Both the position numbers and the translations under genes were made by a program. This document shows, piece by piece, positions 40,119 through 60,999 of a stretch of 64,000 nt of DNA; position 1 is the stretch's first letter; the number at the start of each line of letters is the position of its first letter. This stretch comes from an uncultured Thermoleophilia bacterium (GTDB lineage: Bacteria > Actinomycetota > Thermoleophilia > UBA2241). Under the pieces are notes generated by a model, which was given only the letters and a program-made list of their open reading frames with translations, was not told the origin of the DNA and did no database searches. Location of the stretch: assembly GCA_963696935.1 (NCBI GenBank), contig CAVOMB010000056.1, positions 3,331 to 67,330 on the forward strand, read 5' to 3'.

Positions 40119-40888
40119 GTGAGCGGCTCCAGCAGCGACTCCGACTCGCCCCTGGCGAACACGATGACGAGGATGCCGGCGTGCTCCACGCGAACGTAGC
40201 GCAGGCCGTCGGTGAGGAGGCTGAAGCAGAGCGCCGTGTACACGAGGCCGCTGATGATGACGATCCAGACGTCAGGCCAGGTGAGCAAGTACCCGCTGGC
40301 GACCGTCTGCCAGACGGCCAGCGGGGGAACAGGATGACGGACCCTGCGCAGTAGAGAAGCGCGAAGGTGGAGCCACGCACGCCGGCATCGCTCATGCTGC
40401 CGACGAGCATGATCGCCGTGGCGAACATGAGGCCGGCCAGCAGGCCGAAGACGGCGCCGGGGACGGGGACGGGGACGGCGCCGCGTGCGCAGCGCCCACG
40501 GCGCCAGCACCGCGACCCACACCGGCGCCATGTACTCGAGCGACACGCCGACGGTGACGTTCGAGGTCCGGATGGAGGCGAAGTAGAAGATCATCTCCAG
40601 TGCGACGACGAACCCGAGCACGACCATGCGGCGGATGCGGCCCGACCGGCGGACCTCATCGACACCGCCGGTAAGGAAGAAGAGCGCCGCAAGCGCGATG
40701 CCGGCCAGCCCCATCCTCAAAACGAGGAACAGGCTGGCCGGCATGGTCGAGATCTGGGTGAGCGTCGCCGAGGTGCCGAGGATCAGCGACGACGCGCCGA
40801 TCTCCGCGTACCCGCGGAGGCGGTGATCGGCTCCCGTGAGGGCCGCGTCCCCCGGCGCGGCTCTCGTTGACTCGCCGTCACCCGTCAA
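40115..40888 (-). pseudogene. EamA/DMT-family permease, paralog 5, disrupted (two frame changes plus internal deletions)
   Basis: The N-terminal half is intact up to ...YMAPVWVAVLAPWAL. The frame is lost at the GGGGAC x3 hexamer repeat (about 40461-40480). The middle helices (GAVFGLLAGLMFATAIMLVG...CAGSVILFP) read in another frame. The frame is regained at a C5 run (about 40330). About 35 aa before the C-terminus are missing relative to the paralogs. Confidence 0.7.
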
Positions 40889-42672
40889 TCGCTTGCGAAG
40901 CCCATCCGGCCCGAGAACACCTCGAGGAAGCGCTTGTCGGTGGCGAGGTCCAAGAACTCGATACGGTCCCGCACCTTGGCCATCCTGTCTCTGGCTTTCA
41001 CGTCGATGAGCGCCATCTGCGCGCCCACGCCGGCGGCGTTGCCCACGAACGCGACGCGCTCGGTCTCTACGGGCGGGAACAGGCCGAGGTACTGCGCCGC
41101 GGCCAGGTCGAGGTAGTTGCCGAACGCCCCGGCGATGTACACGGTGTCGAGCTCTTCGAGAGGGACGTCGAGGCTCTGCATGAGCAGCTCCCAGCCCGCG
41201 TGGATGGCGCCCTTGGCGAGCTGCAGACTGCGCACGTCGTGCTGGGTGAAGACGATGTCGCCGTGCGGGCCCTCGGTGAGCAGGTACTCCCAGCCCTCCT
41301 CGCCCTTGCGCACGCGCGGGTGCTTGGAGTTCATGCGGCCGCTCTTCTCGACCACGCCGGCGTGCACGAGACCGGCGAGCAGGTCGACGACACCCGAGCC
41401 GCAGATGCCGATGGGCTCTTCGCCGGCGATAGTGACGATGTCGGTGGCTTCGCCATCGGGAGTGATCTTGACGCGCTCGATGGCGCCGGCGACGGCCTTC
41501 ATGCCGTTGCGGATCTGGTAGCCCTCGAACGCGGGGCCGGACGCGCAGCTCGTCACGGTGACGCGGCCGTCGTGCGCCAGCGCGATCTCCGTGTTGGTAC
41601 CGATGTCGATGGCCATGCTCGGCTTCTTCTTGTCGGCGAGGTGCGTGGCCGCGACCACGGCGAGAGCGTCCGAGCCGACGAACCCGGCGATGGGCGGGGG
41701 GAAGTGCACGCCGCCGTCGGGGTTCATGTGGATGCCGAGCTCGCTCGCCTTGAACGTGAGGGGCTCGGCGGCGGCAGGCGCGAACGGGGCCTGGCCGAGG
41801 CCGACGGGAGACAGGCCAAGCGCCAGGTGATGCATGGCGGTGTTGCCGACCACGGTCATGTCGTAGACGTGATTGACGTGGATGTCCTGACGCTCGTACA
41901 GCGCCTTGAGGTTGGTGTTGACGCCCTCGCGGACGGCCGAGGCCAGCAGAGCCGTCTCGTTGTGCTGGGAGGCGTGAGCGATGCGGCTGATGACGTCCTC
42001 ACCGTAGCGCATCTGCGGGTTCTCGATGGCCTCCTGGTCGATGAGGGCGCCACGGCGCAGATCGAACAGGTAGGCGATGACCTTGGAGGTGCCGATGTCG
42101 ACGGCCACCCCGTAGCACTCGCAATCTCGCTGGCCCGGATGGACGTCGATGACGCGCTTGCCGTAGGTGGTCGCGGTGACCCGCCACTTACCGTCGCGCA
42201 GCGTCGACGGCAGCTCCTTGAGCACGTGCAGCGGGACCTCGACGCCGCCGAGGGCCTGGTCGAACCGCTCCAGGTCCGAGCGCTTGTCGGCCAGCGTCGG
42301 CGGCTCGAGCTGGATCGACCTCGTGGCAACGACCGGGTGTGCGGCGCCGTGCGTGAGCTGCGACGTCGTCAGGATCCGTCGCTGACCGGCGGTGCCGCGC
42401 ACCTCGATGCTGACGCGCGCGGAGCGCGGGTGGGCCTGGCACGCGAGACGCCAGCCCTCGTCGCGCAGCTTCTCCGGGATGCGCTTGAGCTCGCGCTCGG
42501 TGGGTGCCGTCAGCTCTCCGGAGCCCAGACGGACAAGGCACTTGCCGCAGGTACCGCGGCCGGCGCAGTCGGTGGGGATATCGATCTGGGCACGGATGAG
42601 ACCCTTGAGCAGGTTGTCCTGCTCCTCGACGGTCAGGGTCAATCCGATGGGCTCGACAAAGACTTTCGGCAC
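40885..42672 (-). CDS. RamA/RACo-like corrinoid reductive activase (N-terminal 2Fe-2S ferredoxin + ASKHA ATPase domain)
   Basis: GTG 42672 follows AAGGAG. Plant-type ferredoxin Cys motif CAGRGTCGKCLV...C. ASKHA blocks: GVAVDIGTSKV, MAIDIGTNTEIAL, GICGSGVVD, YIAGAFGNY. Confidence 0.8.
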   Translation of the reverse strand: MPKVFVEPIGLTLTVEEQDNLLKGLIRAQIDIPTDCAGRGTCGKCLVRLGSGELTAPTERELKRIPEKLRDEGWRLACQAHPRSARVSIEVRGTAGQRRILTTSQLTHGAAHPVVATRSIQLEPPTLADKRSDLERFDQALGGVEVPLHVLKELPSTLRDGKWRVTATTYGKRVIDVHPGQRDCECYGVAVDIGTSKVIAYLFDLRRGALIDQEAIENPQMRYGEDVISRIAHASQHNETALLASAVREGVNTNLKALYERQDIHVNHVYDMTVVGNTAMHHLALGLSPVGLGQAPFAPAAAEPLTFKASELGIHMNPDGGVHFPPPIAGFVGSDALAVVAATHLADKKKPSMAIDIGTNTEIALAHDGRVTVTSCASGPAFEGYQIRNGMKAVAGAIERVKITPDGEATDIVTIAGEEPIGICGSGVVDLLAGLVHAGVVEKSGRMNSKHPRVRKGEEGWEYLLTEGPHGDIVFTQHDVRSLQLAKGAIHAGWELLMQSLDVPLEELDTVYIAGAFGNYLDLAAAQYLGLFPPVETERVAFVGNAAGVGAQMALIDVKARDRMAKVRDRIEFLDLATDKRFLEVFSGRMGFASD

Positions 42673-42803
42673 GTTTGCTCCTTGCGTTCCGTGAGGACGG
42701 GCGGGCGGCTCTTCCGGCCGCCCGCCCCACCGGCGCACTCTGCCGCGCCGGAGGTCCCCCCGGTCCTACCCCACAGGCTCCGCAGTCAGACCCCGGGGGG
42801 CCC

Positions 42804-44099
42804 TCAGGCCCTGGTCGCCTCGCCGAACACGTCGGCCATGCGGTTCTTCCTGTCGACGACTTTCTGCATGCGCGCGTCCCAGACCTCGCTCAGCGTCGGG
42901 CCGCGGCCGGGGTCGAACATACCGGCGACACCGGAGCGCGGCTTCTCTTCGCAGCCCTCGCAGTGGCACTTGCCCGGGACGTAGTCCTCGGGCTCGGTGT
43001 ACAGGCTGATGACGCCCTCGTAGTTGCGCAGCACGACCTTGCCCGGCGCCTGGCTGATGACGTAGTTGGGAAACACCGGCGTCTTCCCGCCGCCGCCGAT
43101 GGCGTCGATGATGTAGGTCGGCACGCCGAAGCCCGTGGTGTGGCCGCGCAGGCTCTCGTAGATCTCGATGCCCTTGGAGACACTGGTGCGGAAGTGCGCC
43201 GTGCCCTGCGCGAGGTCGCACTGGTAGTAGTAGTAGGGCTTGACCCGGTACTGCAGCAGCTTGTGGGAGAGCTTCATCATGACGCGCGCGTCGTCGTTGA
43301 TGCCGCGCATGAGCACAGTCTGGTTGCCCATCGGGATGCCGGCGTCGTTGATCCGGTCGCAGGCGAGCTTGCTCTCGGCGGTGAACTCCTGCGGGTGGTT
43401 GAAGTGCGTGTTCAGATAGATCGGCTGGTACTTCTTGAGCATGGCGACCAGCTCGGGGGTGATGCGCTGCGGGCAGACCACCGGCATGCGCGAGCCGATG
43501 CGGATGATCTCCACGTGGTCGATGGCGCGCACGCGCTGGATGATGTTCTCAAGTTGCCCGTCACTCAGCACCAGCGGGTCGCCGCCGCTGATGAGCACGT
43601 CGCGGACCTCGGTGGCCCGCTCGATGTACTTGATGGCGTTGTCGATCTCGGTCTTGGCGACGATGTCCTCGCTGCCGCCGACGAGGCGACGCCGCGTGCA
43701 GTGGCGGCAGTACATGCTGCACATCTCGGTGACGACGAAGAGCACGCGGTCCGGATAGCGGTGCGTGATGCGCGGCGTCGGGGAGTCGAAGTCCTCGGAG
43801 ACGGCGTCCTCGATGTCCTCGGAGTGGATGACGAGCTCGGCCGGCGTCGGCACGCCCTGCATACGCACGGGGTCGGTCGAGTCGTCCGGGTCCATGAGCG
43901 ACGCGTAGTACGGCGTCACGCTGACGCGGAACTTGCCCATACACGCCTCGAGGTCCTTGCGCTGTGCGTCTGTGAGGTTCAGCACGCTCTCGAAATCCTC
44001 GGTGGTGGTGAGACGGTTGCGCAACTGCCACTTGTAGTCGTTCCAGTCGGCGTCGCTGACGTCCATGAAGCGCGGGATGCTCTTGCGGTCTCTGATCAT
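42804..44099 (-). CDS. kamA: Lysine 2,3-aminomutase (KamA/AblA family radical-SAM, PLP enzyme)
   Basis: 431 aa. CSMYCRHCTRRR cluster motif, GGDPL, PVVCPQRITPEL, NTHFNHP, YYYQCDLAQG, IIDAIGGGGKTPV. Both acidic residues that I recall binding the lysine epsilon-amino group in the clostridial enzyme are present. C-terminal Zn Cys motif. Confidence 0.85.
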   Translation of the reverse strand: MIRDRKSIPRFMDVSDADWNDYKWQLRNRLTTTEDFESVLNLTDAQRKDLEACMGKFRVSVTPYYASLMDPDDSTDPVRMQGVPTPAELVIHSEDIEDAVSEDFDSPTPRITHRYPDRVLFVVTEMCSMYCRHCTRRRLVGGSEDIVAKTEIDNAIKYIERATEVRDVLISGGDPLVLSDGQLENIIQRVRAIDHVEIIRIGSRMPVVCPQRITPELVAMLKKYQPIYLNTHFNHPQEFTAESKLACDRINDAGIPMGNQTVLMRGINDDARVMMKLSHKLLQYRVKPYYYYQCDLAQGTAHFRTSVSKGIEIYESLRGHTTGFGVPTYIIDAIGGGGKTPVFPNYVISQAPGKVVLRNYEGVISLYTEPEDYVPGKCHCEGCEEKPRSGVAGMFDPGRGPTLSEVWDARMQKVVDRKNRMADVFGEATRA

Positions 44100-44280
44100 C
44101 TTGGCGTCTCCTCCTCCGCGGGTCCATGACCTCCGCGGCAGCTGAATCCGGTGACGCCCCGGCCTCCACGTGGCGGGGCGTGATGCACTCGTGTATACGG
44201 AGCTTACAGCGTCGGCGGGAGCGCCGTCGCTGTCGTCCGGGAGGGCGCGGCGGGCGTGCCGCAGCCGCGCCCGCGGGCTG

Positions 44281-45693
44281 CTACAGGCCGGGGCCCGCGG
44301 CGATGCGCTCGATGACCCCGCGGGCCTCGGCGCCGAGCGGCACGGGAGTGTGCTCGGCGAGCAGTTGCCGCGCGATGACGGTCGCCTTCTCGTAAGCGCC
44401 CTCGCGGCCGGAGGCGACCCAGGCGTCCCACATGGTGCGGTCGAGCAGGCGGGGACGCCACACCTCCTTCATGTGCCGGCGAGTGTGGCGCTGGCCGAGA
44501 TAGTTGCCGCCGATGCCGACTTGCTTGATCGCGTCGGCGGCGATGGTCTCTTCGTCCACCCGGATGCCGGCGGCGATGAAGGCGTTCCAGCTGAAGATCT
44601 CCGTGTCCATCACGAGCTGCTGCGGGCTGAAGGCCGCGGCGGCGCCCAGCAGACCGGCTCCGCCGGTCACACCGGCGCCCGAGGCCGTGGTCGTCATCGA
44701 GGCGAAGGCGTCCTGCTGGCACGCCTGCCAGTCCGGTTCGTGACTGGTGGTACGCAGGCCGCCGGCGACGAGCGGCAGCCCCACGCGGGCTGCAAGCTGC
44801 GCGGCGGCAAGCTGGAACAGCGACGCCTGGGGGCCGGCCGCGGGCAGGCCGGCCGCCGCGGGGTCGGCGACGTAGAAGAACGGCGCGCCGGGAGCAGCAG
44901 CCTGGACGGCCGCGCAGCCGGCGAGCACGCCGGCGTGATGACGGACCAGAGCGGAGCCGAGGTCGACGGCCGCGGGCGGAGCACTGTCGGCCGTCGCAGC
45001 CGGCGGCGAGGGCGGAGCGGTCACGCCCGATGCCGCATCCGCCGGCGCGAGCACCAGCCCGACGGGCAGGCCGGCGCGGGCGAAGACGAGCGCCGCGTCC
45101 AGAGCGGCGGAGCCGCCGCAGAGCGAGAGCGGCGGGCGCCGGCGGGCCTCTTCGGCGGAGCCGGCTATGGCCGCGGCCGCCTCGACGACGCCCTCGGCGT
45201 CGGGAGCGGACGTCAACAGACCGGCCATCACGTGCTTGCTGGTGCCGGCCAGGCAGCGTGCGACTCCAGCGACCACGGGCACGCCGGCCGCACGCAGCGG
45301 CGGGCCGGCGAGCACGGCCACCTCGGGCAGCGCGTCTGCGAGCTTGACGGCGTCGTCCAGATCAGCGGCCGTCGCCGGCACGGAGTCCCCGTCGGCGAGG
45401 CGGCGGACCCGCTCAGGCACGCCGGCCGGTCCGGCGGTCGCGGCGCCGGCGGCCAGCCACACGTGGCCGGCGCCCAGCACGACGTCATGCTCCGGCACGC
45501 GTCCGGCGAGGACGAAGCTTGAGGGCGCCGACTGGGCCGCGGCCTCAGCCGCGGCTGCCCCGACGCCCAGTAGTCCGAGCGCGGCTGCGTGCACGCGCGC
45601 CACGTCGTCGTCGCTCAGTACGCGCAGCGCAAGACGAGCCTGCGTAGTCAGGATGGGCCGCGCCTGCGGCGTCTGCGGAGTCGGATCGGTCAC
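44281..45693 (-). CDS. Divergent, Ala-rich MttB-superfamily protein (N-terminal and central motifs degenerate)
   Basis: GTG 45693 overlaps the upstream stop (GTGA), with AGAGGAG inside the upstream gene. The C-terminal third is clearly MttB-like (QQLVMDTEIFSW...VDEETIAADAIKQVGIGGNYLGQRHTRRHMKEVWRPRLLDR). The substrate-side blocks (GTGSD/SNDG) are absent. Confidence 0.65.
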   Translation of the reverse strand: MTDPTPQTPQARPILTTQARLALRVLSDDDVARVHAAALGLLGVGAAAAEAAAQSAPSSFVLAGRVPEHDVVLGAGHVWLAAGAATAGPAGVPERVRRLADGDSVPATAADLDDAVKLADALPEVAVLAGPPLRAAGVPVVAGVARCLAGTSKHVMAGLLTSAPDAEGVVEAAAAIAGSAEEARRRPPLSLCGGSAALDAALVFARAGLPVGLVLAPADAASGVTAPPSPPAATADSAPPAAVDLGSALVRHHAGVLAGCAAVQAAAPGAPFFYVADPAAAGLPAAGPQASLFQLAAAQLAARVGLPLVAGGLRTTSHEPDWQACQQDAFASMTTTASGAGVTGGAGLLGAAAAFSPQQLVMDTEIFSWNAFIAAGIRVDEETIAADAIKQVGIGGNYLGQRHTRRHMKEVWRPRLLDRTMWDAWVASGREGAYEKATVIARQLLAEHTPVPLGAEARGVIERIAAGPGL

Positions 45694-47126
45694 CGGCTGC
45701 TCCTCTCTGCCTCGGCGAGCACGGCCTGTAGCCGGTCGCGGATCGTCTGGTCCAGCGCGAACGCGCGCGGCTCCTCGCGCAGCTCCTGCGCGCGTGCGGC
45801 CACTCGTTCCTTGAGCGTCGTCGCGCCCGCGGCCGCCCAGCGGTCGTGCGTGGCGCGGTCGAGCAACCGCGGCTGCCAGGTCTCGCGGTGGTGCTTGCGC
45901 GTGTAGCCTCGGCCCAGGTGACTGCCGCCGGGGCCGACCGCGTCGATCTCGTTCAGCGCCAGCGCCTCGTCATCGACACCCACCTCGACCAGCAGCGCTC
46001 GCGCGAACCCCACGAGCTCGTCGCCGAGGACGATGGTCTCGTAGCTGCTCTGCAGACCGCTCTCCAGATAACCGACGTCGTGCAGCAGCGTGGCGCGGCT
46101 GAGCGCGCCGAGCACCGCCGTCATCCCGGCCTCGGCAGCCCACTGCTCGTCGAAGTTCTTGGCGTCCGCGACCGCTGCGTAGGCGAAGCTCGGAAGCCCG
46201 TAGAAGCGCGCCAGGTCGGTGGCCGCGGCGTTGCCGAGGAAGTGCTCGGGCGCGCCGTACACGTCGACAGCCGTGCGCATGTCGAACGCCCCGCAGCCGA
46301 CACCGTAGACGAACGGCGCGCCGGTCCGGCGGAGCTGGTGCACGACGAGGCCGCTCAGCGTCTCGGCGTTGCCGACGACGATGGTCGCCGTCATGGAGGC
46401 CGGCGCCGTGGTGCCCATGGCCGGCGCCGGCGCGTAGATCAGCGGGATGTCCAGGTCGGCGCAGGCGAGGACCTTGTCCAGCGCCTCCTCGCTGTGGATG
46501 AGCGGCGGATTGGGCATGGCATAGCAGCCGAAGCTCCGCGCCTCGCCGCACATGGCCGCCATGTCCTTCATGCGGCGCAGAGCGACTCCGTCATGCGCCG
46601 TGGTCAGCAGCGGCTTGCGCGTGCCGGCCAGCATGGCCGCGAACTGGGCGAGGTCGCCGATCTCCGCCGGGACGTCGTCCGGCAGGCCCATGCTCATCAC
46701 GAAGTCGAGGTTGGGCAGCTTCTCGGCCAAGGCGGCCATGCCCTCGACGTCGGTGGTGGTGCTCCGGCGGCGCTCGCCGGTGTCGGGGTCGGTGACGAAC
46801 ACACAGTCCGATCCCGTGCCGAAGTAGTTGCGACCGTCCGCCAGCTCGAGCCCGCCGAGCTCGCCGCGGCGTGCGTGGCCCTCGCCGCCCGTGGCGCCGC
46901 GCTCCTTGAGCTTGAAGTGGCGCGGCGCGCCCTGCAGGGCGGCGTCCACCAAGGCCGCCGGGATGCGGGCGCGCGTCCCTTCGACGCGCGCGCCCGCCTC
47001 CGCCAGCAGCTCGCGACTGCCGGCGTGGCGGACCTCCACGCCGGTCTCCTCGAGCAGCGCGAGCGTCGCCTGGTGCACGCGCCAGCAGGCGGCGTCGTCC
47101 CAGACGATGAGGCGAGCGGCGGGCAT
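45690..47126 (-). CDS. MttB-superfamily methyltransferase, non-Pyl (type with YFGTGSD / LPNLDFVMSMGLP)
   Basis: 478 aa, full-length family architecture. Val at the position aligned with the TAG of 51799-53268 (...SFAYAAVADAKNFDEQ...). Confidence 0.85.
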   Translation of the reverse strand: MPAARLIVWDDAACWRVHQATLALLEETGVEVRHAGSRELLAEAGARVEGTRARIPAALVDAALQGAPRHFKLKERGATGGEGHARRGELGGLELADGRNYFGTGSDCVFVTDPDTGERRRSTTTDVEGMAALAEKLPNLDFVMSMGLPDDVPAEIGDLAQFAAMLAGTRKPLLTTAHDGVALRRMKDMAAMCGEARSFGCYAMPNPPLIHSEEALDKVLACADLDIPLIYAPAPAMGTTAPASMTATIVVGNAETLSGLVVHQLRRTGAPFVYGVGCGAFDMRTAVDVYGAPEHFLGNAAATDLARFYGLPSFAYAAVADAKNFDEQWAAEAGMTAVLGALSRATLLHDVGYLESGLQSSYETIVLGDELVGFARALLVEVGVDDEALALNEIDAVGPGGSHLGRGYTRKHHRETWQPRLLDRATHDRWAAAGATTLKERVAARAQELREEPRAFALDQTIRDRLQAVLAEAERSSR

Positions 47127-47148
47127 GGGCGGGTCCGGCGGCAGGCCC

Positions 47149-48615
47149 TCAGGCCCCCGCCATCTCCTTGTCGGCGCGCTCGACGATCGCGCGCAGCTCC
47201 GCGACGACGTCGTCCGGCAGCGGCTCGGGCTTGTAGTTCGCCAGGATGTCGTCGGCGATCTCCGTCGCCTTCTCCAGGGCGCCCTTCTTACCCTCGCGCA
47301 GCCAGATGTCGTAGGGGGTGCGGTCCCAGACGCTCGGGCGCCAGATCTCCTTCATGTGCCGGCGCGTGTGCTTCTGCGACAGGTACGTGCCGTTCGGACC
47401 GACGCTCTTGATCACGTCGAGCGCTAGCGTCTCGTCGTCCACTTCGATGCCGCCGGCGACCTTCTGGACGATGCCGTAGATCTCGGTCTCCATGACCATG
47501 TGCGGGTAGCTGAGGATCTTGGAGCCGTTCAGCAGCCCGGCGCCGTTCATCATGTCCGCGTTGGTCATCACGCTGGCGAAGGTGCTGAGCGAATCGTCGA
47601 TAGCCGCCTGCCAGTCGGGCTCCTTGGCGCCGGTGGCCATGGTGCCCATCGCCATCGGCACGCCGTAGAAATGGGCCAGCTGGGTGGACGCGCCGGCGAG
47701 CAGGTAATCCTCGGGCGAGCCGCCGGTGTAGCCGCCGGTCTTGAGGTCGATGACGCTCGGAGCGCCGGCGAAGAAGGCCGGCACGCCGGGAAAAGCCAGC
47801 TCGAGAAGCACGACGCCACTGAGGGCCTCGGCGTTCTGGACGACAAGGTTGCCGGCGAGCGTCGCCGGGCCGGTGCCGGCCGCGAGCGGCATGGGCATGA
47901 AGCCGCTCGCGAGCCCGTGCTCGGCGGCCACGAGGTTGGCCTCGAGGTTCGGGCCGTCGTGCGCGAGCGGGTCCACGGCGCACTGCATGAAGCTGAGGAT
48001 CGGCCGCTCGCGCAGCTTCTCCGCACCGCCGACGATGGCGGCCGCCATCTCGACGAGATAGCGTGCGGGCTTCTCGCCGACGGTGGTCACCGTCTGGAAG
48101 TGCTTGCTGGTGTTGGTGAACACTGCCTCGGCGTCGTGCAGCGCCTTGGTGGCCGACGGCACGTCCTGGCTGGTGACCACCGGGCCCCAGTAGTAGCTGA
48201 TGCTGGGCAGCGCGTCGACGAAGCGGGCGCTGGTCGCCGCGTCGGCCTTGGTGCTCGGCCGCTTCTCGCCCGTCTTGTGGTCGAAGACGAACACGCCGGA
48301 GCCGTCATTGCTCAGATAGCAGTGCTTGCCGTCGATGAGCATGTCGCAGGCGGGGTCGCGGCCGGCAAGCACGTAGCTGTCCGGCACCTGGGAGACGGCC
48401 TCCATGACGATCGCCCGCGGCATCCTGGCGGCCTGCGTGGCGCGGTCGACCTCGCAACCGCTCTTCTCGAGCACCTCGAGGGCGCGCGCACTGGGGAAGC
48501 GCACGCCGACCGTCTCCAGCACGTCGAGGGTGGCCTCGTGGATGCGCTCGAGCTCGCTGGCGCTCAGTACGTCCCACCAGAGCTTGGGGGCGATGGGATT
48601 GATTCGGGATGTCAT
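47149..48615 (-). CDS. MttB-superfamily methyltransferase, non-Pyl (type with YLSNDGSGV)
   Basis: 488 aa. ...GTMATGAKEPDWQA... at the Pyl-aligned block. C-terminal YLSQKHTRRHMKEIWRPSVWDR. Confidence 0.85.
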   Translation of the reverse strand: MTSRINPIAPKLWWDVLSASELERIHEATLDVLETVGVRFPSARALEVLEKSGCEVDRATQAARMPRAIVMEAVSQVPDSYVLAGRDPACDMLIDGKHCYLSNDGSGVFVFDHKTGEKRPSTKADAATSARFVDALPSISYYWGPVVTSQDVPSATKALHDAEAVFTNTSKHFQTVTTVGEKPARYLVEMAAAIVGGAEKLRERPILSFMQCAVDPLAHDGPNLEANLVAAEHGLASGFMPMPLAAGTGPATLAGNLVVQNAEALSGVVLLELAFPGVPAFFAGAPSVIDLKTGGYTGGSPEDYLLAGASTQLAHFYGVPMAMGTMATGAKEPDWQAAIDDSLSTFASVMTNADMMNGAGLLNGSKILSYPHMVMETEIYGIVQKVAGGIEVDDETLALDVIKSVGPNGTYLSQKHTRRHMKEIWRPSVWDRTPYDIWLREGKKGALEKATEIADDILANYKPEPLPDDVVAELRAIVERADKEMAGA

Positions 48616-48799
48616 TGCGGCAACCTCGCAGGGGTCCGTCGACGACAGGTCAGGTGAAGTCGGGCAACGGGCGGGCGGGCGCGGTGATGCTCAGAGAGAG
48701 CCCGTCCGCGGGGAGCGGAAGGGCTTACAGGCCGCAGGAGCGGTTGATGGTGCTGATGCTGATTTTCGCTGCGTCCGGCACGGGCCGAATCCTATCACC

Positions 48800-48866
48800 G
48801 GCCTCGCGCGCGGAAAACCGCAGCGAGGCCGGCGGAGTGCGGCACGTGCAGCGGTTTTTGCCGCAC
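48800..48866 (-). other. Two adjacent 8-bp hairpins whose loops are complementary over 8 nt
   Basis: Hairpin 48800-48830 (GGCCTCGC/GCGAGGCC) and hairpin 48837-48866 (GTGCGGCA/TGCCGCAC). Loop segment 48814-48821 (AAAACCGC) is the exact complement of loop segment 48851-48858 (GCGGTTTT). Confidence 0.4.
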
Positions 48867-48867
48867 C

Positions 48868-50280
48868 TCACGTACCGGGACGGTGGGCCTCGACGTCCGC
48901 GAGGATAGCGTCGAGGCCCGTGCCCACGGCATCCGGCAGCTCGAAGGCGCGCGGCTCGGAGCGCAGCTCCGCGACCCGCGCCTGGAGCCGGTCGAGCAGC
49001 GTCTGCGCCCCGTCCGCCTGCCACGCGTCGTGGCGGGTCGTGTCGAAGAAGTCGCTCTGCCAGATGCTGCGGAAGTGCTTGCGTGTGTAGGGCCGGGCCA
49101 AGTGGTTGCCGCCCGGCCCCGCCGCCTTGATCTCGTCCAGGGCCAGCGCCTCGTCGTCCACGGGCAGCGGCGCCATGAACGCCTTGGCCCAGCCGAGCAG
49201 GTGGTCGCCGAACACGATCGACTCGTAGCTGCTCTGCAGGCCGCACTCGAGGTAGCCCACGTCGTGCAGCAGCGTGCCGCGGCTGAGCTTGCCGAGCATG
49301 GCGGTCAGCGCCGCCTCCGCACTCCACTGCTGGTCGAGCATCTTGCTGTCGGTGTGCGCCGCATAGGCGAAGCTGGGCAGGTCGTACCAGCGCGCGAGAT
49401 CGGTCTGGGCCTGGTGGCCGCGGAAGACGTCCGCCGACGAGTAGACCTCGTTCATCGTCTTCATGTTCATCGCGCCGACACCGACGCCCCAGACGAACGG
49501 CGCACCCGGCTTGACCGCCTGGCTCAGGACGAGGCCGGCGAGGACCTCGGCGTTGGCGACCACGATCACGGCGGCGACGCTGGCCGGCGCCGTGCTGCCC
49601 GCGTTCGGCGCCGGCGCCCAGACCACGGGGATGCCGAGCTCGGCGCAGGCGATCACCTTGCTGGCGCCGTCCTCGTCGAAGAGCAGCGGCGGCACGGGCA
49701 TCGCGTAGATGGCGAAGCTGTCGCGCTCGCCGGCCAGCGCCGCCATCTCCTGCAGCTTCGGCAGGATGTGGCCGTCGCGCGGCGCGACGATCAGCGGCTT
49801 GCGCGTGCCGCGCAGCATGGCGTCGACCTGGACGAGGTCGTCGACGGCCTGCGGCGCGTCCTCGGGCAGGCCCATGCTCATCACGAAATCAATGTTGGGC
49901 AGCTTCTCGCAGAGCGCCGCCATGCCCTCCACGTCGGCCCGCCGGACCCGGCGGCGCTGCCGGGTGTCAGGGTCGCGGACGTAGAGAACGTCCGACCCGG
50001 TGCCACAGTACGTGTGGCCGGCGTCGAGGACGATAGGCTCCGTGTCGCCGCCGCGCGGCTTGATCGTCCAGTCGCGCGGCGCGCTCTTGAGGGCCACCTC
50101 GACGAGGTCCGCCGGGATGCGCACACGCGTCCCGTCGATTTGCGCGCCGGCTGCGGAGAAGATCTCGACCGCCGGCGCGTAGTGCACGTCGATACCCGTC
50201 TCGACGAGCACCTCGAGCGTCGCCTCGTGCACGCGCCGGCAGGCGACGTCGTCCCAGATGGTCAGGCGAGCAGCGTCCAC
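48868..50280 (-). CDS. MttB-superfamily methyltransferase, non-Pyl (paralog of 45690-47126)
   Basis: 470 aa. GTG follows AAGGAG. YCGTGSD, LPNIDFVMSMGLP, ...SFAYAAHTDSKMLDQQ... Confidence 0.85.
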   Translation of the reverse strand: MDAARLTIWDDVACRRVHEATLEVLVETGIDVHYAPAVEIFSAAGAQIDGTRVRIPADLVEVALKSAPRDWTIKPRGGDTEPIVLDAGHTYCGTGSDVLYVRDPDTRQRRRVRRADVEGMAALCEKLPNIDFVMSMGLPEDAPQAVDDLVQVDAMLRGTRKPLIVAPRDGHILPKLQEMAALAGERDSFAIYAMPVPPLLFDEDGASKVIACAELGIPVVWAPAPNAGSTAPASVAAVIVVANAEVLAGLVLSQAVKPGAPFVWGVGVGAMNMKTMNEVYSSADVFRGHQAQTDLARWYDLPSFAYAAHTDSKMLDQQWSAEAALTAMLGKLSRGTLLHDVGYLECGLQSSYESIVFGDHLLGWAKAFMAPLPVDDEALALDEIKAAGPGGNHLARPYTRKHFRSIWQSDFFDTTRHDAWQADGAQTLLDRLQARVAELRSEPRAFELPDAVGTGLDAILADVEAHRPGT

Positions 50281-51798: not shown

Positions 51799-53268
51799 GT
51801 GAAGCGAAACCTGCACGCCGGGCGGCCCAGCTCGGGCGGGCTCAGCCTGAACGTGTTCACGGAGGCTGAGCTCAACGACGTCCACCTCGGCTCGCTCGAG
51901 ATCCTCGAACGCACCGGGATGTGGGTCGAGGCCGACGATGCGCTCGACATCTTCAGCGATGGTGGCTGCATCGTGGACCGCGAGACGCGCATGGTCCGCA
52001 TCCCGCCACACCTGGTGGAGGAGGCAATCCGATCCGCTCCACCCAAGAGCTTCCTGAACGGGCGAGACCCCGACCAGGACATCGTGCTCGAGGCCGGGCG
52101 CGTCTACGTCTCCAACTTCGACGAGGGCATCATGATCGTCGACGCGCGTACCGGCGAGTACCGCCACCCCGTGCTGGAGGATGTGCACGAGGCGGCTCGC
52201 CTGGTCGACGCCCTCAGCGACATCGACACCTACGAGTCGGCGGTGCACCCGGGCGACGTCCCCGAGGAGACGGCGAGCCTCCGCAAGTGGTGGGCGGCGA
52301 CCCAGAACACGGGCAAGCCAGTCGGCACCGAGGCGACGAGCGCCTACGACTGTCGCAGACTGATCGAGATGGCCACGGTGGTCGCGGGCGGCGAGGATGA
52401 GTTCCGCCGCCGCCCGCTCATCGGCTTCGGCGTCTGCCCGGTGAGCCCGCTCAAGCTGCCGCGCGACGCCACCGAGGTGATCATCGAGTCGGCGCGCGCC
52501 TGGTGCCCGGACACGATCCTCAGCATGGCGATGTCCGGAGGATCCTCCCCAGTCACTCTCGCCGGCACGCTGGTGCTGCACAACGCCGAGGTGCTCAGCG
52601 GCATCGTGCTGGCGCAGCTCGTCGAGCGCGGCTGCCCCTGCACCTACGGGTCGTCCACGACGGCCATGGACCTGAAGCTGGCGGCGGCGTGTGTGGGCTC
52701 GCCGGAGCTCGCCCTCTTCTCCGCCGCCTGCGCCCAGATCGCCCGTCACTACCTGCTGCCAAGCTTCGTGGCCGGGTTGTAGAGCGATTCCAAGCTCGGT
52801 GACGCGCAGACCGGTCACGAGAAGACCCTCACCGGACTCCTTCCTGCGTTGGCAGGCGCCAACCAGATCTACGGTGCGGGGATGATCGAATCGGGCGTCA
52901 CCTTCGACCTTGGCCAGCTGGTCATGGACAACGAGATCGCGCGGATGATCAAGTTCGCCGTCGGCGGCATCGCGGTCACCGACGAGACCATGGCGATCGA
53001 CGACATCGCCAAGGTGGGCGCGTTCGGCGACTTCCTCTCGCTGGACGCCACGCTCAAGCACATGCGCGAGCTCAGTCAGCCGGCAGTGCTCGACCGCCGC
53101 GTGCGTGAGGACTGGGAGAGCAGAGGGGCGACCGACCTCGCCTCCCGCTCGCGCGCCCGGGCGCTGGAGCTTGTAGAGTCTCATCAGCCGGCGCCCGTCG
53201 ACCCCGACGTGGCCGAAGAGGTTCGCCACATCATTGCAGCGGCAGACCGTGAGAAAGGCGTGGCATGA
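51799..53268 (+). CDS. mttB: Trimethylamine:corrinoid methyltransferase MttB with an in-frame TAG (52780-52782) at the pyrrolysine position
   Basis: GTG 51799 follows GGAGGT. Listed ORFs 51799-52782 and 52849-53268 are in the same frame and separated only by one TAG. The merged product is 489 aa, with context ...HYLLPSFVAGL-TAG-SDSKLGDAQTGHEKT... The stop overlaps the mttC start (ATGA). Confidence 0.7.
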
Positions 53269-53891
53269 AAGACCAGCTCAAGCAGTCCATCATCGACGGC
53301 AACGAGGGCGTGGCCACGGCCATGACGTCCGCGCTGCTCGCTACCGGGGCCAGCCCCCGTGAGATCCTCGACGAGGGCCTGCTCCCCGGCATGGAGGTGG
53401 TGGGCGCGCGCATGCGCGAGGGCGAGTGCTTCATCCCCGAGGTGCTGCTCTCCGCCCGCGTCATGCAGGCCTGCCTCGACCTGCTGCGCCCGCACATGGC
53501 GGCCGGCGACTCGGCCGGCATGGGCACCGTCGTGATCGGCACCGTCGAGGGCGACCTGCACGACATCGGCAAGAACCTCGTGGGCATGCTCCTGCAGGGC
53601 GCCGGCTTCACGGTCGTCAACCTCGGCACCGGGGTGACCAGCGCCGACTTCGTCGCCGCGGTCAGAGAGCACTCCCCGCAGATCATCGGCATGAGCGCCC
53701 TGCTCACCACCACCCTGCCGCACATGAGCGAGACCATCGCCCTGCTCAAGGGCGCGGGCCTGCGGGACTCGGTCAAGGTGATGGTCGGCGGCGCCCCCGT
53801 GACCGCCGCCTACGCCGAGGAGATCGGCGCCGACGGCTACGGCGCCAACGCCGGCATGGCGGTGGAGCGGGCGAAGGAGTTGGTGGGGTAG
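53265..53891 (+). CDS. mttC: Corrinoid (cobalamin-binding) methyltransferase partner protein, MttC-like
   Basis: 208 aa. An N-terminal helical cap is followed by a B12-binding Rossmann domain with the DxHxxG motif (GDLHDIGKNLV) and ...IGMSALLTTT... It ends with tandem TAG TAG. Confidence 0.85.
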   Translation: MKDQLKQSIIDGNEGVATAMTSALLATGASPREILDEGLLPGMEVVGARMREGECFIPEVLLSARVMQACLDLLRPHMAAGDSAGMGTVVIGTVEGDLHDIGKNLVGMLLQGAGFTVVNLGTGVTSADFVAAVREHSPQIIGMSALLTTTLPHMSETIALLKGAGLRDSVKVMVGGAPVTAAYAEEIGADGYGANAGMAVERAKELVG

Positions 53892-53923
53892 TAGGCTCAC
53901 ACCGTCCAGTCCCGGGAGGGCTC

Positions 53924-55844: not shown

Positions 55845-57326
55845 TCACGCCGTGACCCCGGCGAGTTCCAAGTCGGCAGCCGCGACGAGCCGCCGCAACT
55901 CCAGGCTCACGTCGTCGGGGAGGGGAGCGGGCGCGTGCGTCCGCAAGATCTCACGCGCCCGCTCCTCAGCGTTCTCGAGCGCTCCCTTCTTGCCCCCGAC
56001 GAACCAGGCGTCGTAGGGCGTCCGGTCCCACACCCCCGGCCGCCAGATCTCTCCCATGTGCCGGCGTGTGTGCTTCTCCGCCAGGTACGCGCCCTTCGAT
56101 CCGACCTTCTTGATCACGTCGAGTGCCAGCGTCTCGTCGTCCACCACGATGCCGCCGGCGACCTCCTGCATGATGCCGTAGATCTCGGTCTCCATGACCA
56201 GGTGCGCGTAGCTCAGGGTCTTCGATCCGTCGAGCAGACCGCAGCCGCTCATCATCTCTGCACCCGCGCCCACGCCGGCGAGCGTCGAGAGCGCATCGTC
56301 AACGGCGGCCTGCCAGCCCGGCTCCTTGGCGCCGCTCGCCATGGTGCCTATGTTCATGGCGAAGCCGAAGTGGTGCGCGAGCTCGGTGGCGGCGGCAGCC
56401 AGGACGTAGTCCTCAGGGCTGCCGCCGGTGTAGCCGCCCGTCTTGAGGTCCATCACGGAGGGCGCGCCGGCCAGGAAAACGGGCGCGCCTGGATGCGCGA
56501 GTTGCACGAGGACCATGCCCGCGAGGACGGCGGCCATGTTGACGACGAGGTTGCCGGCCAGCGTCGCAGGCGCGGACGCACATGCGAGCGTCAGCGAGAG
56601 GAAGCCGACGGGGACGCCGGCCTCGGCACAGACCAGCGCCGCCTCGAGGCTCACCGCCTCGTTGCCCAGCGGGTCGATCGGGCAGGCGATCAGGCTCATG
56701 ATGGGCCGGCGGCGGAGCTCTTCGTCCCCGCCGGCCACGACGCGCGCCATCTCGACCACGCGGCGGGTCATGTCCTCGCCCACCACGTCCACCGCCTGGA
56801 AGTGCTTCGTGGTGTTGGCGAAGATCGCCGCGGCCTCGTGCACGGGCCGCGCGGCGACGGGCACGTCCTCGGCCGTCACGACCGGGCCCCAGTAGAAGCT
56901 CACCTGCGGGAGGGCGTCGACGAAGCGGGCAGACTCTGCCACGTCGGCGATCCCGCTCGCGCGCAGCTCACCGCTGTGCGGGTCGATGACACGGACGCCG
57001 CAGCCGTCGTTGCTCAAGTGGCAGGCGGAGCCGTCCAGCCGGATGTCGCAGCGGGGGTCGCGGGCGGCGAGAAGCGGCACCTTGTGCGCCGCCTGCAGCG
57101 CCGCCCGGACGACGTCCCGCGGCAGGAGCGCGATCTGCGATGCGCGGTCGACGCGGCAGCCGCCTCGTTCGAGCGCGTCGAGCGCGCGCTCCAGCGGGAA
57201 GCGCACGCCGACCTCGGCCAAGGTCTCGAGGATCGCCTCCTCGAGCCGCTCCACGTCCGCTGCGCTGAGCACGTCCCAGCGCAAGCGCGGCCGGATGGGG
57301 TCGATCCTTGCTACCGCCTCAGCCAT
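55845..57326 (-). CDS. MttB-superfamily methyltransferase, non-Pyl (paralog of 47149-48615)
   Basis: ATG 57326 follows AGGAGGAG. 493 aa. HLSNDGCGV, ...GTMASGAKEPGWQA..., YLAEKHTRRHMGEIWRPGVWDR. Confidence 0.85.
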   Translation of the reverse strand: MAEAVARIDPIRPRLRWDVLSAADVERLEEAILETLAEVGVRFPLERALDALERGGCRVDRASQIALLPRDVVRAALQAAHKVPLLAARDPRCDIRLDGSACHLSNDGCGVRVIDPHSGELRASGIADVAESARFVDALPQVSFYWGPVVTAEDVPVAARPVHEAAAIFANTTKHFQAVDVVGEDMTRRVVEMARVVAGGDEELRRRPIMSLIACPIDPLGNEAVSLEAALVCAEAGVPVGFLSLTLACASAPATLAGNLVVNMAAVLAGMVLVQLAHPGAPVFLAGAPSVMDLKTGGYTGGSPEDYVLAAAATELAHHFGFAMNIGTMASGAKEPGWQAAVDDALSTLAGVGAGAEMMSGCGLLDGSKTLSYAHLVMETEIYGIMQEVAGGIVVDDETLALDVIKKVGSKGAYLAEKHTRRHMGEIWRPGVWDRTPYDAWFVGGKKGALENAEERAREILRTHAPAPLPDDVSLELRRLVAAADLELAGVTA

Positions 57327-57441
57327 GGCTCCTCCTGGTCGCCTCCCCGATGCTACCGGGGCTGGGCGACCGGCGTCATCCGGCCGGCGCCGTGTCTCTC
57401 CCGTGACGCCGACACACATGCCGCCTCGGCCGCGTACGCAC

Positions 57442-57477
57442 GAAGGGCGGCGAGGCACTCACGCCCCGCCGCCCTTC
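57442..57477 (-). terminator. 11-bp perfect-stem hairpin after the ABC operon
   Basis: GAAGGGCGGCG(14 nt)CGCCGCCCTTC, 25 nt downstream of the ATPase stop. No U-tract. Confidence 0.35.
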
Positions 57478-57501
57478 CGCGGTCCAGCCCAGCTGATGGA
57501 A

Positions 57502-58506: not shown

Positions 58507-58507
58507 G

Positions 58508-59737: not shown

Positions 59738-59845
59738 CGGCGAAGACCTCTCGGTAGGGACCGCGGCGGGGGGCCCGTTGGGGGCACCCCCGCCGTGATC
59801 GACCCAACTATGCGGCCGCGCCCCGCGGGCGCGGCCGCAGTGTCA

Positions 59846-60728: not shown

Positions 60729-60855
60729 GCCTCAGTCCTTTCCGGCTGACTTCTCCCGACGCCGCTGAGCCACGGGTGTGGACGCGGATGGCGGCCCCCA
60801 CCGCCTGTCAGGAACGTACTGTGTCGCACTCCCCCAGCGCGACGTATCGACTTGG

Positions 60856-60884
60856 ATTTATACAGCACCACCCCCGAAAGGCAA
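60856..60884 (-). promoter_or_regulatory. Candidate sigma-70-type promoter for the ABC operon
   Basis: On the minus strand: TTGCCT (60884-60879), 16 nt, TATAAAT (60862-60856), about 125 nt upstream of the SBP ATG. This is the best consensus match I found in the window. Confidence 0.45.
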
Positions 60885-60999
60885 GCCTGCGCGAAGCTGG
60901 TGGCGAAAAGAGTCGGCCTGAGTTGTGAGTATCTGGGCATTCCTGCGCCGGGATGTCGCTCGCACGATGCGCAGACTGCGAGCCTGTCGCGCGGACGCG

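What the first reader, a model, noticed from the sequence alone, without database searches (positions are those of the whole stretch)
44281..50280. Four consecutive MttB-superfamily genes, including a canonical/degenerate pair coupled by a GTGA overlap
48868-50280, 47149-48615, 45690-47126 and 44281-45693 are all MttB-family genes on one strand. They belong to two sequence types: YxGTGSD/LPN[IL]DFVMSMGLP and [LY]SNDG[SC]GV. The last gene is translationally coupled to 45690-47126 and is extremely Ala-rich. It retains only the C-terminal third of the family signature (…VDEETIAADAIKQVGIGGNYLGQRHTRRHMKEVWRPRLLDR). It may therefore be a non-catalytic partner or scaffold subunit rather than an independent enzyme. 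Non-Pyl MttB homologs characterised so far demethylate glycine betaine, proline betaine, carnitine or gamma-butyrobetaine, so each paralog here may have its own quaternary-amine substrate.
Basis: partly seen in the sequence, partly recalled or inferred. Interest (0 to 1): 0.6.

Follow-up and report, generated by a model that had tools for sequence, protein, structure and literature searches.

The report
Degenerate MttB paralog keeps only partner loop
Four tandem vitamin-B12-type methyltransferase genes in a soil Thermoleophilia bacterium are real, and the fourth belongs to a conserved subfamily whose substrate barrel has decayed while the loop that normally reaches over to a partner subunit is fully preserved, so it probably works as a non-catalytic partner rather than as an enzyme.

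Summary
Four MttB-superfamily ORFs lie head to tail on the minus strand. M1 and M3 form one sequence type and M2 the other. M3 and M4 overlap by GTGA, and M4 is 23.8% alanine.

M4 is not a pseudogene. Full-length orthologs (43-92% identity) occur in about 60 Thermoleophilia species genomes. In every locus long enough to show it, M4 is followed by lysine 2,3-aminomutase and a corrinoid activase. M4 keeps the whole MttB TIM-barrel fold, so "only the C-terminal third" is overstated.

Four loops on the catalytic face of the barrel are deleted or replaced. Substrate-pocket positions vary among M4 orthologs, and the barrel evolves 2.4-3.3 times faster than in M1-M3 (dN/dS 0.43 against 0.14-0.19). 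The dimerisation loop is as constrained as in the catalytic paralogs (0.20). In the MttB-MttC crystal structure this loop docks the corrinoid protein onto the partner subunit. That pattern favours a non-catalytic, loop-donating partner (confidence about 0.5).

M3 is not the obligate partner, because it is absent from 15 of 43 loci. One is a pyrrolysine-type mttB. Another, M7, shows the reverse defect: a conserved barrel with the loop lost.

The parts
48868..50280 (-). M1, non-Pyl MttB-superfamily gene (470 aa), type 1 (YxGTGSD)
   Evidence: ORF. Pfam MTTB 239.5 bits. 56% identical to M3. Orthologs 72-94% identical in related loci.
47149..48615 (-). M2, non-Pyl MttB-superfamily gene (488 aa), type 2 (LSNDGSGV); the most constant MttB neighbour of M4
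   Evidence: Pfam 329.7 bits. TIGR02369 464 bits, below the 525 cut-off. Present within 10 kb upstream of M4 in 39 of 43 loci. Barrel dN/dS 0.14.
45690..47126 (-). M3, non-Pyl MttB-superfamily gene (478 aa), type 1; sister of M1
   Evidence: Pfam 250.7 bits. Tree. Present in 28 of 43 loci.
44281..45693 (-). M4, divergent Ala-rich MttB paralog (470 aa); proposed non-catalytic loop-donor subunit
   Evidence: Pfam 160.4 bits over profile positions 82-483. More than 120 ortholog clusters at 60-92% identity. 66 related loci, nearly all Thermoleophilia. AF2 model, then Foldseek TM 0.71 to MttB 7xcl. Barrel dN/dS 0.43, loop 0.20.
45690..45693 (-). GTGA stop/start overlap of M3 and M4
   Evidence: Sequence read. 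Same 4-nt overlap in 32 of 34 M3-M4 loci.
45700..45704 (-). AGGAG Shine-Dalgarno-like motif 6 nt upstream of the M4 GTG, inside the end of M3
   Evidence: Sequence read.
44398..44568 (-). M4 residues 376-432, homologous to the MttB dimerisation loop (residues 396-452); the most conserved part of M4
   Evidence: Alignment mapping. Mean pairwise identity 0.79-0.84, equal to M1-M3. dN/dS 0.20. Role of the loop in MttB-MttC docking from PMC9842639.
44959..45054 (-). M4 residues about 214-245: variable Ala/Pro-rich insert replacing the conserved SMAMSGGSSP-type loop after beta-strand 5
   Evidence: Alignments. AF2 pLDDT below 50 for residues 219-240.
42804..44099 (-). Lysine 2,3-aminomutase (KamA/AblA type); invariant downstream neighbour of M4
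   Evidence: TIGR03820 565 bits, above the 525 cut-off. It follows M4 in every related locus long enough to show it.
40885..42738 (-). RACo-type reductive activator of corrinoid proteins
   Evidence: Pfam Fer2, RACo_linker, RACo_middle and RACo_C_ter. Invariant after kamA.
51799..53268 (+). M5, pyrrolysine-type mttB with an in-frame TAG at 52780-52782
   Evidence: Translation with TAG read through. Rfam PYLIS_3 at 52780-52879, 73.9 bits against a gathering score of 38. Groups with M. barkeri MttB in the tree.
53265..53891 (+). Corrinoid (B12-binding) protein; the only one in the window and the likely shared methyl acceptor
   Evidence: Pfam B12-binding and B12-binding_2. MtgC/MtbC-like in NCBIfam.
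61000..62379 (-). M7, MttB paralog with a highly conserved barrel whose dimerisation loop is replaced by a short variable segment (residues about 385-423, window 61111-61227)
   Evidence: Pfam match covers profile positions 26-407 only. Alignments. Barrel identity 0.80 and loop identity 0.41 in the same genomes where M4 shows 0.51 and 0.73.
55845..57458 (-). M6, MttB paralog 61% identical to M2, at the end of an M7 / amino-acid ABC transporter operon

Best explanation
M1, M2 and M3 are ordinary, probably active, pyrrolysine-free MttB-superfamily methyltransferases. They would take a methyl group from methylated amines and pass it to a corrinoid protein. Their substrates are still unknown.

M4 belongs to a lineage-specific subfamily found in Thermoleophilia. 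It arose from an M2-like gene and has become a pseudoenzyme. It keeps the TIM-barrel scaffold, but the substrate face of the barrel has decayed. What selection maintains is the C-terminal dimerisation loop. In MttB this loop wraps over the partner subunit, forms the rim of the partner's active site and supplies the main docking surface for the corrinoid protein.

M4 is made by translational coupling with the MttB gene directly upstream of it. It most likely joins a mixed MttB dimer or hexamer as a loop-donating, non-catalytic subunit.

Shown here: conservation of the family, synteny, translational coupling, retention of the fold, loss of the catalytic-face loops, and the inverted pattern of constraint.

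Inferred: that M4 does not bind a substrate, that it forms heteromers, and which paralog is its partner.
For: 1. M4 is a functional gene. More than 120 ortholog clusters are full length. It occurs in about 60 species-level Thermoleophilia genomes. dN/dS is below 1 throughout.

2. The fold is kept. The AF2 barrel is confident, and Foldseek gives TM 0.71 to MttB and 0.69 to MtgB.

3. The catalytic face is remodelled.
   - An 8-aa deletion removes the CPTSPL loop after beta-strand 4.
   - A variable Ala/Pro insert replaces the SMAMSGG loop after beta-strand 5.
   - A 5-aa deletion shortens the DLKxG..GSPE loop after beta-strand 6.
   - The NAE motif has become HAG.

4. Pocket positions are variable in M4 but fixed in M1, M2 and M3. 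The defining residues come from PMC13080624 and PMC9842639.
   - Pyl334 position: R19/A8/T5.
   - Y364/H348 position: G17/A8/T6.
   - R312 position: V20/S5/A4.

5. Constraint is inverted. Barrel divergence is 3.3, 3.0 and 2.4 times that of M2, M3 and M1. For the dimerisation loop the ratio is 0.98-1.08. NG86 dN/dS is 0.43 for the M4 barrel and 0.20 for its loop. M1-M3 give 0.14-0.19 and 0.20-0.27.

6. No M4-specific invariant polar residue exists in the barrel. Nearly all of the 72 positions that are at least 95% conserved are shared with M2 or MttB, and 26 of them lie in the 57-residue loop.

7. Coupling is conserved. The M3-M4 overlap of 4 nt is present in 32 of 34 loci. Where M2 is the upstream gene, an overlap or a gap of at most 1 nt is present in 8 of 14 loci.
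Against: - The MttB superfamily has no universal catalytic residue, so 'dead' cannot be read from one position.
- The M4 barrel is still under purifying selection (dN/dS 0.43). It keeps K153/H154, D363/E365 and the G83/G91 loop glycines shared with active members. A remodelled but working pocket is therefore possible.
- The dimerisation loop is also the most conserved region between paralogs in general, so its retention is not unique to M4.
- No heteromer of MttB paralogs was found in the literature searched here.
- No multimer model could be built, and no RNA or protein expression data were found.
- M4's invariant neighbour is kamA rather than any one MttB gene. This could mean its function is tied to lysine metabolism in some other way.
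Confidence: 0.5

Rival explanations
1. M4 is an active methyltransferase with a widened, remodelled pocket. It could be an MT1 for a bulky donor such as a methylated lysine or a methylated peptide, which would feed lysine to the adjacent KamA. Alternatively it could be the missing MT2 that passes methyl from the corrinoid protein to tetrahydrofolate.
For: - The ORF is conserved and dN/dS is below 1 in the barrel.
- There is one copy per locus whatever the number of other MttB genes, and it sits beside the shared activase RACo.
- No MtqA/MtaA-type or pterin-binding MT2 gene was found in the window or in the flanks of related loci.
- Pocket positions carry small residues (G/A/V), which would enlarge the cavity.
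- kamA, kce and a Kat-like aminotransferase always follow.
Against: - Pocket positions vary among orthologs, and there is no M4-specific invariant polar residue that could bind a new ligand.
- The barrel evolves about 3 times faster than in the catalytic paralogs.
- Four catalytic-face loops are deleted or replaced by a disordered insert.
Confidence: 0.28
2. M4 and M7 form an obligate asymmetric heterodimer with one complete active site, made of the M7 barrel and the M4 dimerisation loop. This is a specific version of the best explanation with the partner named.
For: - The defects are reciprocal in the same genomes. M7 has barrel identity 0.80 and loop identity 0.41, with 39 instead of 57 residues and no motif. 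M4 has barrel 0.51 and loop 0.73. M2 has 0.83 and 0.75.
- Both belong to the M2/M6/M7/M4 clade.
- M7 lies in the same locus or on the same contig as M4 in at least 8 genomes, judged from matching contig lengths. It also lies within 10 kb in 13 compact loci.
- M7 is present in the three loci that lack both M2 and M3 near M4.
- In MttB the partner's loop is what docks MttC.
Against: - M7 and M4 are 15 kb apart in the window and in different operons.
- M4 is translationally coupled to M3 or M2, not to M7.
- M7 is not seen within 10 kb in L003 or L057.
- Any paralog that has a loop could serve M7.
- No multimer modelling was possible.
Confidence: 0.15
3. M4 is a decaying duplicate with no protein function of its own. 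The ORF stays open because stop codons are rare at 75% GC, or because translation through it is needed to express the downstream kamA-RACo genes.
For: - This is the highest-GC segment of the window (0.746).
- GC1/GC2 are raised and GC3 lowered relative to neighbouring genes.
- The protein is 23.8% Ala.
- Long spurious ORFs are common on the opposite strand.
- M4 evolves faster than its neighbours.
Against: - The reading frame is intact with conserved length in about 60 species down to 43% identity.
- dN/dS is 0.20 in the loop and 0.43 in the barrel, not about 1.
- 72 columns are at least 95% conserved.
- The AF2 barrel is confident.
- kamA is separated from M4 by 40-180 nt, so coupling into kamA is not required.
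Confidence: 0.07

Closest known systems
Methanosarcina barkeri MttB, the trimethylamine:corrinoid methyltransferase (PDB 7XCL/7XCM/7XCN; PMC9842639)
   Same: Same Pfam family and TIM-barrel fold (Foldseek TM 0.71 for M4). The dimerisation loop is homologous, and M4 is 44% identical to MttB over residues 396-452. A cognate-type corrinoid protein and a RACo/RamA-type activase lie in the locus.
   Different: M1-M4 have no pyrrolysine codon. Only M5 at 51799-53268 has one. M4 lacks Tyr364, Met249, the CPTSPL loop and the SMAMSGG loop. All four score below the TIGR02369 cut-off.
Desulfitobacterium hafniense MtgB, the glycine betaine:corrinoid methyltransferase (PDB 2QNE/9YCE; PMC13080624), and the related MtpB, MtcB, MtyB and MthB of Eubacterium limosum
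   Same: Pyrrolysine-free MttB-superfamily MT1 enzymes. They are dimers in which the C-terminal extension of one subunit edges the other's cavity. Several paralogs share one corrinoid protein. M1+M3 group next to MtgB and 4YYC in the tree (95/84).
   Different: None of M1-M7 has Arg312, which binds the substrate carboxylate. Its equivalents are F, A, F, V, F, N/A and Q. None has the Y97/F356 aromatic pair. Only M1 and M3 have a His at the H348 position. The E. limosum sequences could not be fetched, so no direct phylogenetic placement against them was made.
Catalytically dead paralogs that complete or activate an active partner, for example the Trypanosoma brucei AdoMetDC prozyme (PMC5201418)
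   Same: A duplicated enzyme gene loses its own active site but is kept under selection because it pairs with an active paralog.
   Different: The fold and chemistry are unrelated. For M4 the pairing is inferred from sequence constraint and has not been shown biochemically.
Multi-paralog MttB clusters in anaerobes, for example 'Ca. Formimonas warabiya' DCMF with 82 MttB-superfamily genes and clusters holding three MT1s (PMC9768040)
   Same: Tandem MttB paralogs sit in one operon together with a corrinoid protein and transporters.
   Different: The sections of that paper read here describe no degenerate or loop-less members. Here the array is fused to lysine-fermentation genes (kamA, kce, a Kat-like aminotransferase) in an actinobacterial lineage.

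Membership tests
MttB superfamily (Pfam PF06253) | Profile match above the gathering score (25 bits) over most of the profile | tested here: met
   M1 239.5, M2 329.7, M3 250.7 and M4 160.4 bits. M4 covers profile positions 82-483 of 500.
MttB superfamily (Pfam PF06253) | MttB/MtgB-type TIM barrel with a C-terminal dimerisation extension | tested here: met
   The M4 AF2 model has eight barrel strands. Foldseek gives TM 0.71 to 7xcl and 0.69 to 2qne/9yce. Only M4 and M7 were modelled.
True trimethylamine methyltransferase MttB (NCBIfam TIGR02369 equivalog) | In-frame UAG (pyrrolysine) at the position of M. barkeri residue 334 | tested here: not met
   M1 has H, M2 has A, M3 has V and M4 has R at that column. 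The feature is met only by the separate gene M5, which has TAG at 52780-52782 and a PYLIS_3 element at 73.9 bits.
True trimethylamine methyltransferase MttB (NCBIfam TIGR02369 equivalog) | Score at or above the curated cut-off of 525 bits | tested here: not met
   M1 293, M2 464, M3 305 and M4 213 bits.
MtgB-type betaine:corrinoid methyltransferases (MtgB, MtpB, MtcB, MtyB, MthB) | Arg312 (MtgB numbering), which binds the substrate carboxylate and is conserved in the characterised quaternary-amine enzymes (PMC13080624) | tested here: not met
   The aligned column holds F in M1, A in M2, F in M3 and V/S/A/C/L in M4.
MtgB-type betaine:corrinoid methyltransferases (MtgB, MtpB, MtcB, MtyB, MthB) | Aromatic pair Y97/F356 for the cation-pi contact (specific to MtgB itself) | tested here: not met
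   The columns hold S/G, G/S, S/G and G/(G or A) in M1, M2, M3 and M4.
Three-component corrinoid methyltransferase system (MT1 + corrinoid protein + activase + MT2) | A cognate corrinoid protein and a RACo/RamA activase encoded nearby | tested here: met
   The corrinoid protein is at 53265-53891. RACo is at 40885-42738. Both are conserved in related loci.
Three-component corrinoid methyltransferase system (MT1 + corrinoid protein + activase + MT2) | A methylcorrinoid:THF (or CoM) methyltransferase (MT2) present | tested here: inconclusive
   None is present in the 64-kb window or in the flanks of related loci.
Pseudoenzyme / non-catalytic paralog | Loss or variability of substrate-pocket features that are fixed in the active paralogs, with selection retained elsewhere in the protein | tested here: met
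   Loop deletions and variable pocket columns. Barrel divergence 2.4-3.3 times that of the paralogs, with loop divergence equal. dN/dS 0.43 against 0.20.
Pseudoenzyme / non-catalytic paralog | Demonstrated lack of activity and a physical complex with an active paralog | not testable with these tools
   This needs biochemistry or multimer modelling. Structure prediction accepts single chains only.

The most novel reading that the evidence does not exclude
The locus encodes a division of labour within one enzyme family. M7 has a strongly conserved catalytic barrel but has lost the dimerisation and corrinoid-docking loop. M4 has a decayed barrel but a fully conserved loop. Together they would form an obligate asymmetric heterodimer with a single complete active site. 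This would be the first pseudoenzyme-dependent member of the MttB superfamily. Because the island is always joined to kamA-kce-kat and to a polar-amino-acid ABC transporter, its substrates may be methylated lysines, which after demethylation would be fermented as lysine.
Probability: 0.15. Interest if true: 0.75.

Novelty: new variant of a known kind. Interest (0 to 1): 0.55.

Why it matters
MttB-superfamily enzymes control how anaerobes and soil bacteria strip methyl groups from trimethylamine and quaternary amines. These processes bear on methane emission and on trimethylamine in the gut. All characterised members are treated as self-sufficient homo-oligomers.

A conserved subfamily that keeps only the trans-acting loop, and a sister subfamily that has lost exactly that loop, would show that paralogs in this family can assemble into mixed complexes. 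It would also warn against counting every MttB hit in metagenomes as an independent substrate-specific enzyme.

The invariant fusion of the array to lysine-fermentation genes points to an unexplored class of substrates in Thermoleophilia. This class is abundant in soil and peat, has few cultured members, and has already been reported to express Pyl-type mttB and mtbB (PMC10805028).

Tried and rejected

2. Expression could not be tested. No RNA run holds M4, and only DNA metagenomes hold the M3-M4 stretch.

3. The reading 'M4 retains only the C-terminal third' was rejected. Pfam and the fold cover the whole barrel.

4. M3 as the obligate partner was rejected. It is absent from 15 of 43 loci.

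5. A conserved His/Cys metal site in M4 (H252, H253, C260, C147, H318) was considered. It was rejected because those residues are not kept in the distant orthologs L039, L045 and L047.

6. A riboswitch or other known RNA element in the M4-kamA spacer was looked for. None was found. The only Rfam hit above the gathering score is the PYLIS element in M5.

7. A 971-aa 'fused' MTTB gene in L071 looked like a natural fusion of two paralogs. It is an M1 frameshift running into M2, most likely an assembly indel.

8. The first MAFFT run timed out. The fast alignment was distorted by over-long translations. It was replaced by a filtered L-INS-i alignment.

9. Literature searches for MttB together with trimethyllysine, aminomutase or heterodimer returned nothing relevant.

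10. The AF2 model of M7 was only moderately confident and was not used as evidence.
Full report
**Observation**

All four match Pfam MTTB (PF06253) far above the 25-bit cut-off, at 239.5, 329.7, 250.7 and 160.4 bits. All four score below the 525-bit equivalog cut-off for true trimethylamine methyltransferase.

The GTGA overlap of M3 and M4 is real, and an AGGAG sits 6 nt upstream of the GTG. M1 and M3 are 56% identical. M2 is 28-29% identical to them and 35% to M4. M4 is 23.8% Ala against 13-17% in its paralogs.

The window in fact holds eight MttB homologs.
- M5 (51799-53268, + strand), with an in-frame TAG.
- M6 (55845-57458).
- M7 (61000-62379).
- A fragment at 70-585 that runs off the left end of the window.

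**M4 is a conserved gene family, not a relic**

A search of 5.8 billion proteins returned more than 120 clusters of full-length M4 orthologs at 60-92% identity. A scan of one genome per prokaryotic species found 66 related loci. Nearly all come from uncultured Thermoleophilia, with identity down to about 43%. A profile search of 1.84 billion cluster representatives gave only some 15-25 strong hits before scores fell to the level of generic MttB. The subfamily is therefore small and lineage-specific.

The AlphaFold model has a confident eight-stranded barrel. It superposes on MttB (TM 0.71) and MtgB (TM 0.69). 'Only the C-terminal third is retained' is therefore too strong.

**Context**

I ran tblastn of the window's proteins against all fetched loci. 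In every locus long enough to show it, M4 is followed by a lysine 2,3-aminomutase, a RACo corrinoid activase, several EamA permeases, a class-III aminotransferase and a BKACE enzyme. The aminomutase passes the AblA equivalog cut-off, and the BKACE enzyme just reaches the Kce cut-off.

The gene directly upstream of M4 varies. It is M3 in the closer relatives and M2 where M3 is absent. In L046, L053 and L056 there is no adjacent MttB gene. Within 10 kb upstream of M4, M2 is present in 39 of 43 loci, M1 in 30 and M3 in 28.

Coupling to whichever MttB gene lies upstream is conserved. The 4-nt overlap with M3 occurs in 32 of 34 loci. With M2 upstream, an overlap or a gap of at most 1 nt occurs in 8 of 14 loci.

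In a maximum-likelihood tree M4 belongs with M2, M6 and M7 (100/99 support). It does not group with M1 and M3, which sit next to MtgB and 4YYC. The 'canonical/degenerate pair' M3-M4 is therefore a clade-specific arrangement. The older pairing is M2-M4.

**What is degenerate in M4**

The structural papers define the functional positions.
- MtgB binds glycine betaine with Y97, R312, H348 and F356 (PMC13080624).
- MttB uses Pyl334, Tyr364, the Gly110-Thr111 cis peptide, Met249 and Gly372.
- In MttB the dimerisation loop (residues 396-452) of the partner subunit provides the main contacts to the corrinoid protein MttC (PMC9842639).

I rebuilt the MttB and MtgB sequences from the HMMER alignments and checked their numbering. 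I then aligned them with 130 orthologs of M1-M7.

The M4 family differs from the active members as follows:
- It lacks 8 residues of the CPTSPL loop after strand 4.
- A variable Ala/Pro-rich insert replaces the SMAMSGGSSP loop after strand 5. That insert has pLDDT below 50.
- It lacks 5 residues of the DLKxG..GSPE loop after strand 6.
- NAE has changed to HAG.
- The window's clade has also lost the N-terminal hairpin of about 35 aa, which distant M4 orthologs still have.

Pocket columns are variable in M4 but fixed in each of M1, M2 and M3:
- Pyl334 column: R19/A8/T5.
- Y364/H348 column: G17/A8/T6.
- R312 column: V20/S5/A4.

Nearly all of the 72 columns that are at least 95% conserved in M4 are shared with M2 or MttB. 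Of these, 26 lie in the 57-residue dimerisation loop. There is no M4-specific invariant polar residue in the barrel.

**Inverted constraint**

In matched sets of genomes, the M4 barrel is 3.3, 3.0 and 2.4 times more divergent than the barrels of M2, M3 and M1. The dimerisation loop diverges at the same rate as theirs (ratios 1.08, 0.99 and 0.98).

Nei-Gojobori dN/dS is 0.43 for the M4 barrel and 0.20 for its loop. M1-M3 give 0.14-0.19 for the barrel and 0.20-0.27 for the loop. The catalytic paralogs conserve the barrel most, whereas M4 conserves the loop most.

Since that loop acts in trans on the partner subunit and on the corrinoid protein, the simplest reading is that M4 survives as a loop-donating, non-catalytic subunit. 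It remains an inference, for four reasons:
- The family has no single catalytic residue to score.
- The barrel is still under some selection.
- No multimer model could be built.
- No expression data were available.

**An unexpected counterpart**

M7 is also a widely conserved family. Its barrel is very strongly conserved, with many invariant polar residues. Its dimerisation loop, however, is replaced by a short, variable Ala/Gly/Pro segment of 39 residues instead of 57, with none of the family motif.

In the seven genomes where both could be aligned, the figures are:

| Paralog | Barrel identity | Loop identity |
|---|---|---|
| M7 | 0.80 | 0.41 |
| M4 | 0.51 | 0.73 |
| M2 | 0.83 | 0.75 |

The two defects are complementary. 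M7 lies in the same island as M4 in many genomes. In the window, however, it is 15 kb away, in an operon with a polar-amino-acid ABC transporter and M6. I rate an obligate M7-M4 heterodimer as possible but unproven.

**Substrates**

Pocket residues are fixed within each ortholog group and differ between groups. This fits distinct specificities. None of the paralogs has the Arg312 that is conserved in the characterised betaine enzymes, so they cannot be assigned to MtgB, MtpB, MtcB, MtyB or MthB. Sequences of the Eubacterium limosum enzymes were not obtainable here, so the phylogeny uses only MttB, MtgB and 4YYC as references.

The constant link to kamA, kce and kat, and to a family-3 solute-binding protein, suggests methylated lysine-type substrates. 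This is speculation.

**Other points**

M5 carries TAG at the pyrrolysine position, followed by an Rfam PYLIS_3 element at 73.9 bits.

Tandem MttB paralogs as such are known, for example the 82 genes in strain DCMF (PMC9768040). I found no report of degenerate or heteromeric MttB paralogs.

**Verdict**

The array is an ordinary multi-paralog MttB cluster with one unusual member. M4 is best seen as a new, degenerate variant of a known family. The case for a non-catalytic partner role is moderately well supported (about 0.5). Interest is 0.55.

Noticed in passing
window 51799-53268 (+); TAG at 52780-52782; 52780-52879: Pyrrolysine-type mttB. It has an in-frame TAG at the canonical position, immediately followed by an Rfam PYLIS_3 element (73.9 bits against a gathering score of 38). 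A corrinoid protein (53265-53891) and a class-III aminotransferase (about 53897-55285) follow.
   Followed up: partly
window 61000-62379 (-), especially 61111-61227: The M7 family of MttB paralogs has a very conserved barrel, but its dimerisation loop is replaced by a short variable Ala/Gly/Pro segment. This is the mirror image of M4's defect. The family is conserved in more than 120 protein clusters.
   Followed up: partly
window 55845-62379 (-): Operon of M7, an SBP_bac_3 solute-binding protein (59808-60728), an ABC permease (58508-59737), an ABC ATPase (57502-58506) and M6. This is a polar-amino-acid-type importer flanked by two MttB paralogs. In L070 and L071 it lies a few kb from dnaA and dnaN.
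   Followed up: partly
window 70-585 (-), 781-1659 (+), 1860-3383 (+): An eighth MttB homolog (N-terminal 170 aa, running off the left end of the window) sits beside an IclR-type regulator and a histidine ammonia-lyase-family gene. The latter scores just below the hutH cut-offs. It could be a betaine-lyase-type enzyme, but this was not examined.
   Followed up: no
L003 1326-2777 and 1-1308: A relative carries a split Dimeth_Pyl (mtbB-like, 344 + 117 aa) gene and a split MTTB gene upstream of its M2-M4 pair. This suggests further pyrrolysine-encoding methyltransferase genes in this lineage.
   Followed up: no
L045 1510-3000 and L047 10001-11368, compared with window 45540-45693: Distant M4 orthologs still have the N-terminal hairpin of about 35 aa that the window's M4 clade has lost. 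The degeneration therefore looks stepwise along the lineage.
   Followed up: partly
L071 16839-19754: A 971-aa gene called as MTTB is an M1 ortholog with a frameshift near its 3' end, reading through into M2. This is most likely an assembly indel and not a natural fusion.
   Followed up: yes
window 44001-46000: This is the highest G+C stretch of the window (0.746). M4 has raised GC1/GC2 (0.81/0.59) and lower GC3 (0.88) than its neighbours (0.94-0.95). The pattern fits relaxed amino-acid constraint drifting toward Ala, Gly and Pro codons.
   Followed up: partly
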